The notes under the pieces were generated by a model. It ran no database searches. It saw only the letters and a list, made by a program, of their open reading frames with translations, and was not told the origin of the DNA. A stretch of 43,869 nucleotides of DNA from a virus. Position 1 is the first letter of the stretch. Each line of letters starts with the position of its first letter. The DNA is taken from UHGV virus genome UHGV-0210493, one strand, 5' to 3'. The translations under genes were made by a program, and so were the position numbers. Shown here in pieces: positions 1,885 through 6,481 of this stretch.

Positions 1885-2097
1885 TTAAGCTTCTTGCTTT
1901 TCTTTTCGTTCAATACCTAAAATATCATCGCTAGAAACCCCAAAAAACATAGCTAGCTTAACAATGTTTTCTGCATTCATAGATAAAGGATTGTTTTCCC
2001 AGTTGCTAATTGACGTTTGAGTTGTACCGATTTTTTCTGCCAACTCTCTTTGCGACATTTTGCCTTTTCTTGCTCTTAATTCTGCGATTCCCACCAT
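1885..2097 (-). CDS. Cro-like XRE-family HTH regulator
   Basis: 70 aa; SQRELAEKIGTTQTSISNWENN HTH motif; divergent from the cI-like gene. Confidence 0.75.
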   Translation of the reverse strand: MVGIAELRARKGKMSQRELAEKIGTTQTSISNWENNPLSMNAENIVKLAMFFGVSSDDILGIERKEKQEA

Positions 2098-2292: not shown

Positions 2293-3006
2293 ATGGAAAG
2301 CATAGGTCAAAGAATTAGAAATTTGCGAGAAATGAAAAATATGACACAAACAGAATTATCTCAATCTTTAGGAATGAAAACTTACACAACTGTTTCAAAG
2401 TGGGAAAGTGATGATAATTTCCCCAAAGGAAGAGACTTAAAGAAATTATCTGAATTATTCGGGGTTAGCTCTGATTATCTTTTAGGTCTTAATACAAATA
2501 AAAATGTTACTTCAATTGAAACAATCTACAATCAATTAGAAAAACCAAGACAAACAAAAGTCTACAACTTTGCTGAACAGCAACTTGAAGAACAAAACAG
2601 TAAAGTGGTTCAATTCCCTGTTCAAAATAACCATGAAGAGGTGCAAGCTTACCTATCAGCTGGTACTGGTATTTTAAACTATTATGAAGCTGATAAAGAT
2701 ATAGCGGAAGTTCCTGCAGATGCACCAGAACATGATTGGATATTTAAAATTGTCGGCGATTCTATGAAGCCGTTGTTTGATACTGGTGATATCGTGTATG
2801 TGGATGAGTTCAAACAAGGCATAGATACTATACAAAACGGTAGAATTTATGTAGTTGAGGTTGACGGAGAAGCTTATATAAAGAAAGTCTATGTATACGA
2901 AGAAACAAAAACGCTTAGATTGGTTTCCCTTAACAAAGATTATATGGATTTGCTATTTAGATTTGAGGATTCGGATATTAAGTTTATTGGTCGTGTCATA
3001 ATTTGA
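2293..3006 (+). CDS. cI/LexA-like prophage repressor (N-terminal HTH_XRE, C-terminal S24 peptidase)
   Basis: N-terminal QTELSQSLGMKTYTTVSKWE HTH; C-terminal GDSM...K S24 serine/lysine dyad motifs. Confidence 0.85.
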   Translation: MESIGQRIRNLREMKNMTQTELSQSLGMKTYTTVSKWESDDNFPKGRDLKKLSELFGVSSDYLLGLNTNKNVTSIETIYNQLEKPRQTKVYNFAEQQLEEQNSKVVQFPVQNNHEEVQAYLSAGTGILNYYEADKDIAEVPADAPEHDWIFKIVGDSMKPLFDTGDIVYVDEFKQGIDTIQNGRIYVVEVDGEAYIKKVYVYEETKTLRLVSLNKDYMDLLFRFEDSDIKFIGRVII

Positions 3007-3064: not shown

Positions 3065-3622
3065 ATGAAAAAGTACTTAATTATAATATCTGTTTTGTCG
3101 GTATGTTTAATCGCTGTTGCTTGTGGTTTTGCTTATACTTCCTTTACCATCACAGAACAAAGAGAGAACAATCACGTCTTGAGCAAGAGCTTAACAACCG
3201 CTAAATCTGAAATCAATGAAATGAAAAATGAGGTTGACGAAAAGAAAAAAAGCATTTCAGAACTCGAATCACAAATAAAAAAACTCGAAAAGGAAATTAA
3301 AGAAAATGATAGTAACGAAGTAGCATACAATGAAGAAACTGATGATTCGTTGCAAGTTGCCACTCAAAATGAAACACCTGATAATAATTTTTCATCTGAT
3401 AGCGTAGCGTCGGATTCAGCCAATAACACGGAAAAAACGGCCTCTTCAGCCGAAGAGCAAGTGGTTGTTGATACGCCGAAAAATGTGGAATATACTGGAG
3501 AGCCGTTTGCGGAATTTGCTGCAAAATACGGAATGACTGTCGAAGAATTAGCTCAAATGAATAACTTTTCCGATCCTAGTCAAATGATATTGATGAAGGG
3601 ACAAACCGTAACTGTCAAATAA
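3065..3622 (+). CDS. lipoprotein with coiled-coil and C-terminal LysM-like domain
   Basis: Signal peptide with lipobox LIAVAC-G; E/K-rich coiled coil; C-terminal YTGEPFAEFAAKYGMTVEELAQMN...GQTV LysM-like. Confidence 0.7.
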   Translation: MKKYLIIISVLSVCLIAVACGFAYTSFTITEQRENNHVLSKSLTTAKSEINEMKNEVDEKKKSISELESQIKKLEKEIKENDSNEVAYNEETDDSLQVATQNETPDNNFSSDSVASDSANNTEKTASSAEEQVVVDTPKNVEYTGEPFAEFAAKYGMTVEELAQMNNFSDPSQMILMKGQTVTVK

Positions 3623-3655: not shown

Positions 3656-5056
3656 ATGAAAAAAGCGGGCTTATATATTCGAGTTTCCACTCCTCAACAA
3701 GAAAAAGAAGGCTACTCAATCGAAGCGCAAACGGAAAAACTCAACGCTTACGCAATAGCAAAAGATTATAAAGTGTTCAAGACCTATACAGATGCAGCCT
3801 TTTCTGGCGCTAAACTTGAACGGCCGGCGCTTAATGAAATGATCGAAGATATCGAAAACAATAAAATAGATGTCGTCATCGTTTACAAGCTTGACCGACT
3901 TTCTCGTAGCCAAAAGAACACTATGTATTTGATCGAAGATGTGTTTCTCAAAAATAATGTTGATTTCATCAGCATGCAAGAAAGTTTTGATACTACCACC
4001 TCTTTCGGTCGTGCAATGATCGGAATTCTTTCAGTTTTCGCCCAATTGGAGCGTGATAACATTACAGAACGCATGTCAATGGGGAAACTTGAACGTGTGA
4101 AACGTGGCTATTACATGGGTGGCGGTAATGTTCCATTTGGATATGAGTACAATCAAATTACAGGCGAATTAGAAATACAAGAAACACAAGCATTAGCTGT
4201 TAAGCGAATGTTTGAACTTTTTTTAAACGGACAAGCGATAAATAAGATTGTTTCTACATTGAAAAAAGAATTCCCTGTTTTTGAAGATAGCTTCATGGAC
4301 TCTACCGTCAGAAGAAGGCTTCAATCTCATTATTATTGCGGGAAACAGAAATATCAAAACAAAATATACGATGCTAAACACGAACCTATCGTTTCTACAA
4401 AAGACTTCAACAAAGCGCAGCGTTTAATTAGCAATAGACCTCACAGCAATGCGTTTAACCACAGTTATTTATTTTCGGGGCTCATTATATGCCACAAGTG
4501 CGGAAAGCCTTACAATGGATATGAGAGCGTTAGAACCGCCAACGGGAAAAAATATAAACATAAGTATTATCGTTGCTCGTGCAGGACTTACAAGCATAAG
4601 CAAAAATACGGTTGGGCTTGTTCAGGTAAATCTTATCGATGCGATTTTTTGGACGCAGCAATTATGAGTGAAATAAAAAAAAGAGCAGAAAATTCTAAGT
4701 TTGCATTAAAAGAAGATAATAACGAAGTAGATAATAAACCTATCATTAGAGAAATCGCCCGACTTAACGCTCAGCAATCAAAGCTATTAGATTTGTATCT
4801 ATCAGATAAAATATCCACAAATATCTTAGATAATAAAACCGATGAGCTTAAAGAGAAAATAGAAAAATTAGAATTACAGTTGAATCAGACGGTGAGTAAA
4901 AAAGATAAAGAAGAGTTTGAAAAATCATTAGAAGAGTTAGTTGATAAATTTGAAGAATTGGATTTTTCTACCAGACGGAGCTTGATAGAAAATATTATTG
5001 AGAAGATCGAGGTTGTTGACGATGAAATTACTATATACTTTTATGTGACCATTTAA
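3656..5056 (+). CDS. int: large serine recombinase (phage integrase)
   Basis: N-terminal resolvase catalytic domain (GLYIRVSTPQQ, active-site Ser), recombinase domain, Cys-rich zinc ribbon (CHKCG...CSC...C), C-terminal coiled coil. Confidence 0.9.
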   Translation: MKKAGLYIRVSTPQQEKEGYSIEAQTEKLNAYAIAKDYKVFKTYTDAAFSGAKLERPALNEMIEDIENNKIDVVIVYKLDRLSRSQKNTMYLIEDVFLKNNVDFISMQESFDTTTSFGRAMIGILSVFAQLERDNITERMSMGKLERVKRGYYMGGGNVPFGYEYNQITGELEIQETQALAVKRMFELFLNGQAINKIVSTLKKEFPVFEDSFMDSTVRRRLQSHYYCGKQKYQNKIYDAKHEPIVSTKDFNKAQRLISNRPHSNAFNHSYLFSGLIICHKCGKPYNGYESVRTANGKKYKHKYYRCSCRTYKHKQKYGWACSGKSYRCDFLDAAIMSEIKKRAENSKFALKEDNNEVDNKPIIREIARLNAQQSKLLDLYLSDKISTNILDNKTDELKEKIEKLELQLNQTVSKKDKEEFEKSLEELVDKFEELDFSTRRSLIENIIEKIEVVDDEITIYFYVTI

Positions 5057-5090
5057 GCAATCACTTGCATGTTTGGTTATTTGGACACGT

Positions 5091-5130
5091 AAAAAAGCCC
5101 CCTACTCAAAAGAGTAAGGGGTGTTTGTTT
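5091..5130 (+). terminator. rho-independent terminator downstream of int
   Basis: GCCCCCTACTC / GAGTAAGGGG hairpin followed by TGTTTGTTT. Confidence 0.5.
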
Positions 5131-5154
5131 ACCACGGAAGCTTGTTGTTGTTCA
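5129..5154. repeat. 26-bp direct repeat copy 1 (TTACCACGGAAGCTTGTTGTTGTTCA), duplicate of the endolysin 3' end
   Basis: Exact match to 5561..5586. Confidence 0.85.
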
Positions 5155-5252
5155 TGATATGACATATTTCATTATAATAGGTTAGCACACACCTGAATCT
5201 GTCTGATATACTATATATACCAAAAGAATAGAACTTGTGAACATTAACTCGG

Positions 5253-5489
5253 TTATGTCTCGAAGTTCTGTAGTTTTAAATATTCAATTGCTTCACCATC
5301 TAATTGGAAAAAATGAATATACTCACCATCCGATATATCTACTAGTGGTTTTCCGCTTAATAGGTGGTTTAATAATTCTTTTGTGATATTAGGTTCTGAG
5401 CAGAATACCGAACTCATGAAATTAGTTTGAGGTATATCGAATATTTCTTCTGCATTTTCGATTGGAATTATATAGGAAGGAGCTGTCAT
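5253..5489 (-). CDS. small acidic hypothetical protein (78 aa, about 13 D/E vs 3 K), moron between lysis cassette and int
   Basis: ORF track; flanked by the 26-bp direct repeats and followed by a hairpin terminator at 5530..5560. Confidence 0.5.
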   Translation of the reverse strand: MTAPSYIIPIENAEEIFDIPQTNFMSSVFCSEPNITKELLNHLLSGKPLVDISDGEYIHFFQLDGEAIEYLKLQNFET

Positions 5490-5560
5490 ATTATCACCTC
5501 ATTTAAACTTGTAAAAATAGATCGAAAAGACAAGCCGCTTAAAATTTAGCGGCTTTTTGC

Positions 5561-5586
5561 TTACCACGGAAGCTTGTTGTTGTTCA
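5561..5586. repeat. 26-bp direct repeat copy 2 (encodes the endolysin C-terminus ...NNNKLPW*)
   Basis: Exact match to 5129..5154. Confidence 0.85.
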
Positions 5587-6481
5587 ATGCTACTTGCAAT
5601 GATTTGACCATGTTAGAAACAGGGCTGATAACTCCATCAACCGTTGTCTTCAAGGCTCGTTGCATAGCTTTAATCATTTCTGTACCGCACAACCCATCGA
5701 TCGCACCTTTGTATAAACCTTTCGCTTTCAACCTTTTCTGCCATTTACGAATCAACGTTGATCCTTTTAGCGTATTATCGAATTGCGCCGCATAAAGGTT
5801 CTTGTTGCACGCCTGCCGGTATTGGTGACTGATTTCATCATCTGGCGTAATCCCCTCATATTTCATTGCTTTATTGGCAGTGCTTGGTCCAAACATGCCG
5901 TCTTCTTGGATTTTATTGGTATTTGGTTTTACAGAAGGTGTACTAGGTTTGACTGTTGAATTTGATGATCCAGAATTATTGTTTGATGTGCTGTCTCCGT
6001 TGTAATATTTTTTGATTTGATCCACGAAATATTGTTTGATAGCTGCTACACCTTTTCCATGCAAATCCCACGCTCTGTGAGGACACGATGTAGAACTCAA
6101 CTCACGATGTAACGGAAACACGGCTGAAGCGGGATTCAAACCGTATTTTTTACATAACTCGGCAGCTAACTTAAATGCTTTTTGCTCATTTGCAAGATAC
6201 GTGGATTCATTCCCCATGGATTGACATACTTCAATCCCCAAGTAATTAGCATTGCCTTTGCTGTTACCTGTATGCCAAGCCTTGTTGCTATCCTTCTCAG
6301 CTTGGTATGTTCCATCGCTAGCAACATAGTAATGAGCAAATCCTAAAGAAGGAGTATGGCTTTCTAGCCAGTTTTTATAAAATGCAGCAGTCGCACCTTG
6401 GCTTCCGGCATCATTATGCAAAACGATTGCTGTCGGGTTTGATCCACGAGCACCCGCAATTCCTGAATAACTTACTACCAT
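5561..6481 (-). CDS. endolysin: N-acetylmuramoyl-L-alanine amidase (Amidase_2/PGRP) with C-terminal peptidoglycan-binding domain
   Basis: Amidase_2-like catalytic region (HNDAGS..., CPHRAW); C-terminal PG_binding_1-like repeat (GLYKGAIDGLCGTEMIKA). Confidence 0.85.
   Translation of the reverse strand: MVVSYSGIAGARGSNPTAIVLHNDAGSQGATAAFYKNWLESHTPSLGFAHYYVASDGTYQAEKDSNKAWHTGNSKGNANYLGIEVCQSMGNESTYLANEQKAFKLAAELCKKYGLNPASAVFPLHRELSSTSCPHRAWDLHGKGVAAIKQYFVDQIKKYYNGDSTSNNNSGSSNSTVKPSTPSVKPNTNKIQEDGMFGPSTANKAMKYEGITPDDEISHQYRQACNKNLYAAQFDNTLKGSTLIRKWQKRLKAKGLYKGAIDGLCGTEMIKAMQRALKTTVDGVISPVSNMVKSLQVALNNNKLPW

What the first reader, a model, noticed from the sequence alone, without database searches (positions are those of the whole stretch)
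5057..5600. Moron flanked by a 26-bp duplication of the endolysin 3' end, carrying a very acidic 78-aa ORF
The last 26 bp of the amidase gene including its stop (5561..5586, minus-strand NNNKLPW*) are repeated exactly at 5129..5154. The two copies bracket the 5253..5489 ORF (net charge about -10) and a hairpin terminator. This looks like an insertion that duplicated the target, or a recombination scar. A small, highly acidic protein in a moron slot next to int is a classic profile for DNA-mimic or anti-defence proteins, or an immunity protein. The serine-integrase attP is expected somewhere in 5057..5252 (an 11-bp palindrome ATATGACATAT lies at about 5157..5167) but cannot be fixed from sequence alone.
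Basis: seen in the sequence. Interest (0 to 1): 0.55.

Follow-up and report, generated by a model that had tools for sequence, protein, structure and literature searches.

The report
Decayed accessory cassette with recombination scar
The 26-bp repeat is a leftover copy of the lysin gene's end, marking where a small accessory gene cassette was recombined in between the lysis genes and the phage attachment site; this is ordinary phage mosaicism, but the acidic 78-aa gene turns out to be the surviving half of a conserved, uncharacterised two-gene module.

Summary
An exact 26-bp direct repeat (5129-5154 / 5561-5586) brackets a real 78-aa acidic gene (5253-5489, minus strand; net charge -10).

- **Insertion.** Related phages have the "empty" arrangement, with the lysin stop codon followed directly by terminator T1. 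Others carry the cassette with the same right-hand junction. Copy 1 is therefore a non-coding vestige of a lysin 3' end left at a recombination junction. It is not a transposon target duplication.
- **attP.** It lies outside the cassette, between the integrase stop and T1, with the crossover at about 5060-5077. It is not at the 5157-5167 palindrome.
- **A partner gene.** ORF78 (phrog_9771) is normally paired head-to-head with a ~250-aa protein (phrog_7805) in Lactobacillales temperate phages. In this window the partner has been deleted, leaving about 21 nt of its 3' end (5500-5520) and its terminator T2.
- **Status of ORF78.** The orphan is still under purifying selection and was recently exchanged between phages.
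- **Function.** Unknown. There is no fold or sequence match to DNA mimics, anti-CRISPRs or defence families. My best guess, at low confidence, is that ORF78 binds or regulates the partner protein.

This is a new member of a known kind and of modest interest.

The parts
3656..5056 (+). Large serine integrase, 466 aa. It converges on the late operon.
   Evidence: Resolvase + Recombinase + Zn_ribbon_recom domains; phrog_95.
5045..5100 (.). attP region. Approximate extent, inferred. The crossover lies within about 5060-5077.
   Evidence: L049 (integrase 98% identical) is identical to the window/L048 phage form up to ...CATATTTGCT. It then continues into an interrupted aldo/keto reductase gene instead of TTATTTGGACACG...T1.
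5098..5121 (.). T1, a strong bidirectional terminator that ends the late operon and int. It is the conserved right-hand boundary of the lysis module.
   Evidence: 10-bp stem, -18.2 kcal/mol, U6 tail, z = -5.3. It directly follows the lysin stop codon in L009, L010, L011 and L048.
5129..5154 (-). Non-coding vestige of a lysin 3' end (copy 1 of the 26-bp repeat). This is the recombination scar.
   Evidence: Exact repeat. The same junction CATATCA|TGAA occurs in L008 and L013; the L044 vestige is degenerate and the L003 vestige truncated. In empty-site phages this sequence is contiguous with the live lysin gene.
5155..5252 (-). 3' flank of ORF78 that travels with the gene. It contains the non-conserved palindrome at 5157-5167.
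   Evidence: Alignments with L003-L007, L008, L013 and L044.
5253..5489 (-). ORF78: a 78-aa acidic protein, phrog_9771. It is the orphaned member of a head-to-head gene pair.
   Evidence: Full-length phrog_9771 match, E = 8e-30. Homologues in phages J-1, PL-1, PLE2 and BH1 and in Companilactobacillus and Limosilactobacillus genomes. pN/pS 0.04-0.17. AF2 pLDDT 82.
5494..5500 (-). Ribosome-binding site GAGGTGA of ORF78.
   Evidence: Read from the sequence. Conserved in L003, L008, L013 and L044.
5500..5520 (+). Vestige of the deleted partner gene (phrog_7805): its last codons and stop, CATTTAAACTTGTAAAAATAG, compared with ...CAT TTT AAA CTT GTA AAA TAG (..HFKLVK*) in L013 and L044.
   Evidence: alignment of the window with L013 and L044. 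The partner is absent from the whole window by tblastn.
5532..5555 (.). T2, a bidirectional terminator shared by the lysin and the lost partner gene. It is weak in the lysin-to-ORF78 direction.
   Evidence: 8-bp stem, -13.2 kcal/mol, tail GUCUUUUCG on the minus strand and CUUUUUGCUU on the plus strand. It lies between the lysin and the partner gene in L013 and L044.
5561..6481 (-). Endolysin (Amidase_2 + PG_binding_1). Its last 26 nt, 5561-5586, are copy 2 of the repeat.

Best explanation
**Shown**

The ancestral layout in this phage group is lysin stop codon, then terminator T1, then attP, then integrase. A roughly 1.2-kb accessory cassette was recombined in between the lysin stop codon and T1. 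It consisted of terminator T2, a ~250-aa gene on the opposite strand, the 78-aa gene head-to-head with it, and a 3' flank.

The right-hand joint fell 26 nt inside a lysin gene's 3' end. That left a non-coding vestige (5129-5154) glued to T1. Because the live lysin has the same ending, the result reads as a direct repeat. In the lineage of this window the ~250-aa gene was later deleted at a short TCAT microhomology. That deletion left about 21 nt of the gene's 3' end (5500-5520) and T2.

attP lies outside the cassette, between the int stop codon and T1.

**Inferred**
- The first joint was an illegitimate or microhomology-mediated crossover between two related phages.
- The cassette is now gained, lost and patched by homologous recombination through the lysin end and T1. 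That would keep the vestige similar to the live copy.
- ORF78 in this window is probably transcribed by read-through of the weak T2 from the late (lysis) operon.

**Function (low confidence, about 0.25)**

ORF78 is a small acidic binding partner or regulator of the phrog_7805 protein. As an orphan it may neutralise phrog_7805-type proteins made by other prophages.
For: - **Empty sites.** L009, L010 and L011 have ...AACAACAACAAGCTTCCGTGGTAA followed directly by ACAAATACCCC and T1. L048, with an integrase 97% identical to the window's, has T1 directly after an unrelated lysin type.
- **Filled sites.** L008 and L013 share the vestige junction CATATCA|TGAA. L044 carries a degenerate vestige and L003 a truncated one.
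- **A second scar of the same kind.** In L044 a 29-nt type-1 lysin vestige follows the stop codon of a type-2 lysin.
- **Pairing.** The 251-aa neighbour in L044 and L013 is homologous to PLE2_25 and J1_25 (26% identity over 221 aa, E = 1e-24; both phrog_7805). The two genes lie head-to-head with start codons 4-22 nt apart across J-1-like phages and Companilactobacillus and Limosilactobacillus prophages. All 26 IMG/VR loci of the Lactobacillales-type partner subfamily carry an ORF78 homologue next to it, though in L054 it is a pseudogene.
- **Deletion of the partner.** The window has no partner gene. It retains the partner's terminal codons, and T2 terminates better on the partner's strand.
- **ORF78 is live.** pN/pS is 0.04-0.17, including between two orphan copies. 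A 300-bp tract (5226-5525) is 100% identical to L008 inside flanks that are about 80-94% identical, which indicates recent exchange.
- **Composition.** The cassette is 31.8% GC; the window is 38.2%.
- **attP.** L049 diverges from the phage form after ...CATATTTGCT into an aldo/keto reductase gene cut at Pfam profile position 252 of 291.
- **Order of decay.** The partner is frameshifted in L067, L070 and L098 while ORF78 is intact. ORF78 occurs without the partner in at least four lineages.
Against: - **Direction of gain versus loss.** Empty sites could also arise from filled ones by deletion between the two repeats, so individual lineages cannot be polarised.
- **Small sample.** Only five distinct filled genomes were found. 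The way the vestige tracks the live copy's synonymous variants is unexplained (gene conversion or repeated patch recombination), and it fails in L044.
- **No promoter.** No convincing promoter for ORF78 was found in the window or in paired loci; all scans were at or below chance.
- **Against the functional guess.** The head-to-head arrangement is not the usual toxin-antitoxin operon layout. L054 has an intact partner with a decayed ORF78. Twenty-eight more distant phrog_7805-like genes stand alone. Nothing is known about either protein: there is no family, PDB or fold match.
Confidence: 0.75

Rival explanations
1. First reader's reading. ORF78 is a stand-alone anti-defence protein, a DNA mimic of the Ocr/ArdA kind or an anti-CRISPR. 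It would be carried on a moron whose insertion duplicated 26 bp of target.
For: The protein is small and very acidic (net charge -10.3, pI 4.1). It sits in the accessory slot next to attP and int. It is present in some relatives and absent in others.
Against: - It matches no PADLOC, Pfam or NCBIfam family.
- Family members range from -0.3 to -11 in net charge.
- The most conserved segment is the LLSGKPLVD.SDGEYIH motif (G46, D51, D54, E56 and H59 invariant), not a general acidic surface.
- No HTH (aca-like) gene lies next to it.
- There is no transposase and no significant terminal inverted repeat.
- The gene is normally paired with a 250-aa gene.
Confidence: 0.08
2. ORF78 has a late-cycle function of its own, unrelated to the phrog_7805 gene. 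It could be a lysis-timing or lysin-associated accessory factor. That would explain why it survives alone directly downstream of the lysin and is read through from the late operon.
For: In the window, L008 and L003 it follows the lysin on the same strand behind a weak terminator. The orphan copies are under purifying selection.
Against: In J-1-like, Companilactobacillus and Limosilactobacillus phages the homologue sits in the lysogeny module between int and cI, far from the lysin. Pairing with phrog_7805 is the conserved feature; proximity to the lysin is not.
Confidence: 0.2
3. The second copy of the 26-mer is kept because it is functional. It might be part of T1's upstream context, a regulatory RNA element, or an arm of attP. 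On this view it is not a passive scar.
For: The copy is exact in the window and tracks the live copy's synonymous variants in L008, L013 and L003.
Against: The vestige is truncated to CCATGGTAA in L003 and is degenerate in L044, with the cassette otherwise intact. T1 folds without it. The att breakpoint lies on the other side of T1. No Rfam match reaches threshold.
Confidence: 0.05
4. The filled arrangement is the older state in this clade, and the empty relatives are secondary losses by homologous deletion between the two direct repeats.
For: Recombination between the 26-bp repeats would regenerate lysin-TAA-T1 exactly, as seen in L010 and L011.
Against: A partial non-coding copy of a coding sequence cannot be primordial, so lysin-T1 must have existed first. 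L048 has T1 directly after an unrelated lysin type with no vestige. This rival concerns the polarity of individual lineages only and is compatible with the main explanation.
Confidence: 0.3

Closest known systems
Morons of temperate phages (Juhala/Hendrix sense; from my own knowledge)
   Same: Extra genes wedged between conserved neighbours, bounded by terminators. They are present or absent among close relatives and have lower GC than the surrounding genome (31.8% against 38.2%). They sit in the attP-proximal accessory slot.
   Different: No convincing promoter of its own in this copy. The cassette was originally two head-to-head genes and is now half-deleted.
Mosaic-junction scars from illegitimate recombination in phage genomes (Hendrix, Pedulla, Brussow comparative genomics; from my own knowledge)
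   Same: A gene fragment is stranded at a module boundary. The joints sit at short microhomologies: CAAGTAG in L044, and TCAT at the partner deletion.
   Different: The vestige stays nearly identical to the live gene end in several genomes. That suggests ongoing conversion or patch recombination rather than free decay.
Phage-encoded orphan antidotes to toxin or abortive-infection proteins, for example T4 Dmd against RnlA/LsoA (from my own knowledge; a resemblance in how it might work only)
   Same: A small acidic protein that outlives its larger partner gene, is exchanged between phages, and is kept under purifying selection.
   Different: The partner is not shown to be toxic or defensive. The genes are divergent rather than co-transcribed. 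One locus (L054) keeps the partner and loses ORF78.
Ocr/ArdA DNA-mimic anti-restriction proteins
   Same: Small size and strong negative charge.
   Different: No sequence or fold similarity. The charge is not conserved across the family. The predicted fold is a compact alpha/beta domain with a conserved LLSGKPLVD.SDGEYIH core.
Accessory genes between int and cI in Lactococcus and Streptococcus temperate phages (Sie2009, Ltp; from my own knowledge)
   Same: In J-1-like phages the pair occupies the same slot, between int and the repressor.
   Different: Neither protein sequence showed an obvious signal peptide or membrane segment on reading (not tested with a predictor). No homology was detected.

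Membership tests
Moron (accessory transcription unit in a temperate phage) | Present in some close relatives and absent at the same position in others | tested here: met
   Empty sites in L009, L010, L011 and L048; filled sites in the window, L008, L013, L044 and L003.
Moron (accessory transcription unit in a temperate phage) | Own promoter upstream and terminator downstream | tested here: inconclusive
   Terminators T2 and T1 flank it. The only promoter-like site has its -10 box over the ATG. Scan counts are at or below the shuffle expectation.
Moron (accessory transcription unit in a temperate phage) | Base composition differs from the surrounding genome | tested here: met
   31.8% GC for 5155-5560; 38.2% for the window.
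Transposon or insertion-sequence target-site duplication | Terminal inverted repeats and a transposase, with the duplication created on insertion | tested here: not met
   No transposase ORF. The only inverted repeat at the ends is 11 nt with one mismatch, and I estimate about three such pairs by chance in 900 bp. The duplication is a gene-end vestige that also occurs at another junction type in L044.
DNA-mimic anti-restriction proteins (Ocr, ArdA) | Sequence or fold similarity to a known mimic | tested here: not met
DNA-mimic anti-restriction proteins (Ocr, ArdA) | Conserved, strongly negative surface | tested here: inconclusive
   The window protein has net charge -10.3, but homologues range from -0.3 to -11.3. 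The surface distribution was not examined.
Anti-CRISPR locus | Adjacent aca-type HTH regulator, or similarity to a known Acr | tested here: not met
   The neighbours are the lysin, terminators and the integrase. No PDB or viral fold hit.
Known anti-phage defence systems (PADLOC) | HMM match of ORF78 or of its partner | tested here: not met
   No match for ORF78 or for the Lactobacillales-type partners. The distant partner-like proteins give only a SEC-C-tail match to PDC-S12 (E = 6.4e-07) and E2 models, plus one weak DpdC hit at E = 0.012.
Type II toxin-antitoxin pair | Two small genes co-transcribed in one operon | tested here: not met
   The genes are head-to-head on opposite strands, with start codons 4-22 nt apart.
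Type II toxin-antitoxin pair | The antidote can persist without the toxin, but not the reverse | tested here: inconclusive
   ORF78 stands alone in at least four lineages. The partner is frameshifted in L067, L070 and L098. However, L054 has an intact partner with an ORF78 pseudogene, and distant partner-like genes stand alone.
Serine-integrase attP | Phage form and integrated form diverge at a point adjacent to int | tested here: met
   L049 against L048 and the window: divergence after ...CATATTTGCT, equivalent to window positions about 5072-5077. The flank is an interrupted Aldo_ket_red gene.
Serine-integrase attP | About 50 bp with imperfect dyad symmetry around a 2-bp crossover, shown by recombination | not testable with these tools
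   The best dyad is only 14 of 21 positions, centred near 5066-5067. No attB or second junction was available.

The most novel reading that the evidence does not exclude
The phrog_7805 / phrog_9771 head-to-head pair could be a new prophage-borne two-component system of Lactobacillales phages. The ~250-aa protein would be an exclusion or abortive-infection-type effector, and the small acidic protein its antidote or switch. The orphan ORF78 in this window would then be a counter-defence gene that phages pass around by homologous recombination. The stranded lysin-end vestige and T1 would serve as portable homology arms for that exchange.
Probability: 0.2. Interest if true: 0.6.

Novelty: new member of a known kind. 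Interest (0 to 1): 0.35.

Why it matters
The repeat is a clean, datable example of how temperate-phage accessory cassettes are spliced in at module boundaries and then decay. All the intermediate states are available in public contigs: empty, full, half-deleted, and scarred at a second junction.

The analysis also places attP for this serine integrase and identifies a likely host target, an aldo/keto reductase gene.

The more useful lead is the conserved head-to-head pair of two wholly uncharacterised phage families. The pair occupies the lysogeny and accessory slot of phages from Lacticaseibacillus, Companilactobacillus and Limosilactobacillus and of the Lactobacillales phage in this window. 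If the pair proves to be a defence-and-antidote module, it would add a system to the phage-host arms-race catalogue for food and gut lactic acid bacteria.

Tried and rejected
- **Nucleotide search.** Megablast of 4800-5900 against 50,697 phage records found no match.
- **Family searches, ORF78.** No Pfam, NCBIfam or PADLOC match.
- **Family searches, partner.** No meaningful match for the partner or its distant relatives. The only hits are a SEC-C tail in a few distant members and one weak DpdC hit.
- **PDB profile searches.** Both families returned only chance-level hits.
- **Spurious hits.** HMMER hits of ORF78 to 1,100-1,200-aa proteins (P0005 with RCC1 repeats, P0010 with surface repeats) are short-motif matches and were rejected.
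- **Rfam.** Nothing in 4900-5800 reached a gathering score.
- **Inverted repeat.** The 11-nt pair 5154-5164 / 5484-5494 was considered as a possible element end. It was rejected because I estimate chance would give pairs of that length in 900 bp.
- **Promoters.** Scans of the window, L013 and J-1 gave counts at or below shuffle expectation.
- **Whole-cassette insertion.** A Campbell-type insertion of the whole cassette through the 26-mer was considered. The tract identical to L008 covers only 5226-5525, not T2 or the vestige, which points to ordinary patch recombination instead.
- **Literature.** Searches found only the J-1/PL-1 genome announcement and nothing on these genes.
- **Host.** The species-representative genome scan found the family only in Companilactobacillus and Limosilactobacillus, so the host of this window's phage was not identified.
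Full report
**1.

The 26-mer TTACCACGGAAGCTTGTTGTTGTTCA occurs exactly twice in the window, at 5129-5154 and 5561-5586. There is no further match at up to three mismatches, and no match in 100 shuffles.

Copy 2 is the last 26 nt, stop codon included, of a 306-aa endolysin (5561-6481, minus strand; Amidase_2 + PG_binding_1).

Between the copies lies a 78-aa minus-strand ORF (5253-5489). It has a GAGGTGA ribosome-binding site, net charge -10.3 and pI 4.1.

There are two terminator hairpins:
- T2 (5532-5555, -13.2 kcal/mol) lies just after the lysin stop codon.
- T1 (5098-5121, -18.2 kcal/mol, U6 tail) lies just beyond copy 1.

**2. Genome context**

The window is a complete-looking temperate siphovirus in its phage (circular) form. 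Reading rightwards it has:
- a cro-like gene (1885-2097, minus strand);
- a cI-like HTH + S24 repressor (2293-3006);
- a LysM protein (3065-3622);
- a large serine integrase (3656-5056).

The late operon arrives from the right on the minus strand. It carries a BppU-type receptor-binding protein, a Dp-1-type holin and the lysin. The finding therefore sits in the attP-proximal gap between the lysis module and int.

**3. The cassette is an insertion and copy 1 is a scar**

A pattern search for the vestige plus the foot of T1 retrieved three IMG/VR phages (L009, L010, L011). In each, a full-length lysin ending ...AACAACAACAAGCTTCC(G/A)TGGTAA runs straight into ACAAATACCCC and T1, with no ORF78.

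L048 has an integrase 97% identical to the window's. It has int, attP and T1, followed directly by the stop codon of an unrelated lysin type (...SWFLEQDVK*). Lysin-stop followed by T1 is therefore the basic arrangement.

Four other phages carry the cassette:
- L008 (= L012) and L013 both have the same right-hand junction, CATATCA|TGAA..., and the vestige fused to T1.
- L044 carries a degenerate vestige before T1.
- L003-L007 (a single phage) carries a truncated vestige, CCATGGTAA.

Two things follow. A partial, non-coding copy of a coding sequence cannot be primordial. And a single shared junction argues for one founding event: a crossover that joined the cassette's 3' flank to a point 26 nt inside a lysin gene of another genome.

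There is no transposase. The 11-nt inverted repeat near the ends is no longer than I estimate chance would give in 900 bp.

The same kind of scar occurs at another junction. In L044 the stop codon of the type-2 lysin is followed by a perfect 29-nt vestige of the type-1 lysin end and then by T2, joined at a CAAGTAG microhomology. L050 has two T1-like terminators bracketing yet another accessory stretch. This boundary is a recombination hot spot.

**4. attP is outside the cassette**

L049 (integrase 98% identical) is an integrated copy. After the int stop codon it matches the window and L048 through ...AATCACTTGCATATTTGCT. It then continues into an aldo/keto reductase gene that breaks off at Pfam profile position 252 of 291. 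The phage forms continue instead with TTATTTGGACACG and T1.

The crossover is therefore at or left of window position 5077, within about 5060-5077. attP must span roughly 5045-5100. That overlaps the end of int and the left foot of T1.

It plays no evident part.

**5. ORF78 is a real, conserved gene and half of a pair**

ORF78 matches phrog_9771 over its full length (E = 8e-30). An exhaustive HMMER search of 1.84 billion cluster representatives found only 13 hits. Eleven are proteins of 54-85 aa. The other two are spurious repeat-protein hits.

Homologues occur in Lacticaseibacillus phages J-1, PL-1, PLE2 and BH1 (47% identity). They also occur in Companilactobacillus and Limosilactobacillus genomes and in 26 IMG/VR loci.

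In L013 and L044 a 251-aa gene lies on the opposite strand, with its ATG 11 nt from the ORF78 ATG. It is homologous to PLE2_25 and J1_25, the divergent neighbour of the ORF78 homologue in those phages (26% identity over 221 aa, E = 1e-24; both phrog_7805).

A tblastn and HMM survey shows this head-to-head pair, with start codons 4-22 nt apart, in about a dozen distinct phage types. All 26 IMG/VR loci of the Lactobacillales-type partner subfamily have an ORF78 homologue beside the partner, though in L054 it is a pseudogene. Twenty-eight more distant partner-like genes (24-30% identity, from many phyla, all annotated "hypothetical") stand alone.

In J-1-like phages the pair sits between int and cI. 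In the window's group it sits on the other side of attP, after the lysin.

**6. The window carries a decayed copy**

The window has no phrog_7805 gene anywhere. Between T2 and the ORF78 ribosome-binding site it retains CATTTAAACTTGTAAAAATAG (5500-5520, plus strand). This corresponds to the partner's last codons and stop in L013 and L044 (...CAT TTT AAA CTT GTA AAA TAG..HFKLVK*).

An LVK-type C-terminus recurs in other family members, so this is native coding sequence of the partner. The partner-less state is therefore derived. It arose by a deletion between TCAT microhomologies at the partner's start and end.

L008 and L003 share the same deletion joint.

T2 has a better U-tract on the partner's strand than on the lysin's strand. 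This fits T2 having arrived with the cassette as the partner's terminator.

**7. The orphan is still maintained and is mobile**

Pairwise pN/pS among five versions is 0.04-0.17. The comparison between two orphan copies (window and L003) gives 0.16.

Against L008, positions 5226-5525 are 300/300 identical. The flanks are much less similar:

| Segment compared with L008 | Identity |
|---|---|
| Lysin C-terminal domain | about 82-94% |
| T2 | about 80% |
| 3' flank and vestige | 90-94% |
| Lysin catalytic domain | unrelated |
| Everything beyond T1 | unrelated |

. That pattern indicates a recent patch of homologous exchange centred on ORF78.

**8. How ORF78 is expressed is not settled**

The only promoter-like site (TTTACA, 16 nt, TG-n-TAATAT) places its -10 box over the ATG. 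Its -35 box lies in the partner vestige. It therefore cannot produce a translatable full-length message. Scans of paired loci gave nothing above chance.

The simplest inference is read-through of the weak T2 from the late operon.

**9. Function**

A 13-sequence alignment gave a confident AF2 model (pLDDT 82, pTM 0.61). It is a small alpha/beta domain whose best-conserved segment is LLSGKPLVD.SDGEYIH.

The searches found nothing:
- no Foldseek match with E <= 1e-3 in PDB or BFVD;
- no PDB sequence match;
- no Pfam, NCBIfam or PADLOC family.

The partner is equally anonymous.

The DNA-mimic idea gains nothing beyond the charge, and the charge is not conserved in the family (-0.3 to -11).

The strongest functional clue is the conserved pairing together with the pattern of decay:
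- the partner is frameshifted in L067, L070 and L098 while ORF78 is intact;
- ORF78 stands alone in at least four lineages;
- there is one counter-example, L054, where the partner is intact and ORF78 is decayed.

I therefore commit, at roughly 0.25, to ORF78 being a binding partner or regulator of the phrog_7805 protein. As an orphan it could neutralise such proteins made by other prophages. The main alternative, at about 0.2, is an independent late-cycle role.

**10. Unexplained**

The vestige tracks the synonymous variants of the live lysin end within each genome:

| Genome | Live lysin end | Vestige |
|---|---|---|
| Window | AAC AAG CTT CCG | identical |
| L008 | AAT AAG CTG CCG | same, plus two changes at its 5' edge |
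| L013 | AAC AAT AAT AAG CTT CCG | one mismatch |
| L003 | ...CCA TGG TAA | CCA retained; vestige truncated to CCATGGTAA |
| L044 | unrelated (type-2) lysin | degenerate |

Three explanations are possible: gene conversion between the copies, repeated patch recombination with co-circulating empty-site phages, or loss-and-regain cycles through the repeats. With five genomes this cannot be resolved.

**11. Verdict**

The attP guess is right in interval but wrong in detail. The DNA-mimic idea is unsupported.

This is a new example of a well-known process, and interest is modest (0.35). It is lifted slightly by the previously unnoticed conserved gene pair.

Noticed in passing
window 7628-8923 (-) and 9066-10031 (+): A 431-aa polytopic membrane protein with no Pfam hit and an Acyl_transf_3 acyltransferase lie between the lysis genes and the BppU/beta-helix receptor-binding protein. 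They look like a second accessory insert inside the late region, possibly modifying the cell envelope.
   Followed up: partly
window 3065-3622 (+): A protein with an N-terminal hydrophobic segment, a coiled coil and a LysM domain lies between the cI-like repressor and int. Larger LysM relatives (389-390 aa) lie just beyond T1 in L013 and L044.
   Followed up: partly
L049 4399-5204: A 98%-identical serine integrase is integrated inside an aldo/keto reductase gene. The Pfam profile match stops at position 252 of 291, and the ORF runs into phage DNA as ...WILRHPANMQVIT*. This is a likely attB target for this integrase group.
   Followed up: partly
L044 930-1000: The stop codon of an unrelated (type-2) lysin is followed by a perfect 29-nt vestige of the type-1 lysin end (CATTGAACAACAACAAGCTTCCGTGGTAA) and then T2. 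The joint is at a CAAGTAG microhomology, a second scar of the same kind.
   Followed up: yes
L050 4372-5204: In a phage with a 59%-identical integrase, two T1-like terminators bracket another accessory stretch between int and the lysin. That stretch shares a short segment with the region downstream of T1 in L013.
   Followed up: no
L013 4231-4989 and L044 1020-1778 (partner gene); J-1 J1_25, PLE2_25: phrog_7805 proteins share invariant or near-invariant motifs (WWNG, N.DGG.H.D, R..VHE). They match no Pfam, NCBIfam, PADLOC or PDB entry. Distant ~210-aa relatives are widespread as single 'hypothetical' genes in Acinetobacter, Vibrio, Stenotrophomonas and others. Some of these have a SEC-C zinc-binding tail.
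   Followed up: partly
window 5253-5489 (protein residues 40-64): The motif LLSGKPLVDISDGEYIHFFQLD gives HMMER hits to single blades of an RCC1-repeat protein (P0005, 6 stretches). This is probably a short beta-hairpin resemblance rather than homology.
   Followed up: no
L054 2200-2500: The ORF78 homologue is disrupted by a stop codon and a frameshift while its phrog_7805 neighbour is intact. This is the single counter-example to 'the partner decays first'.
   Followed up: partly
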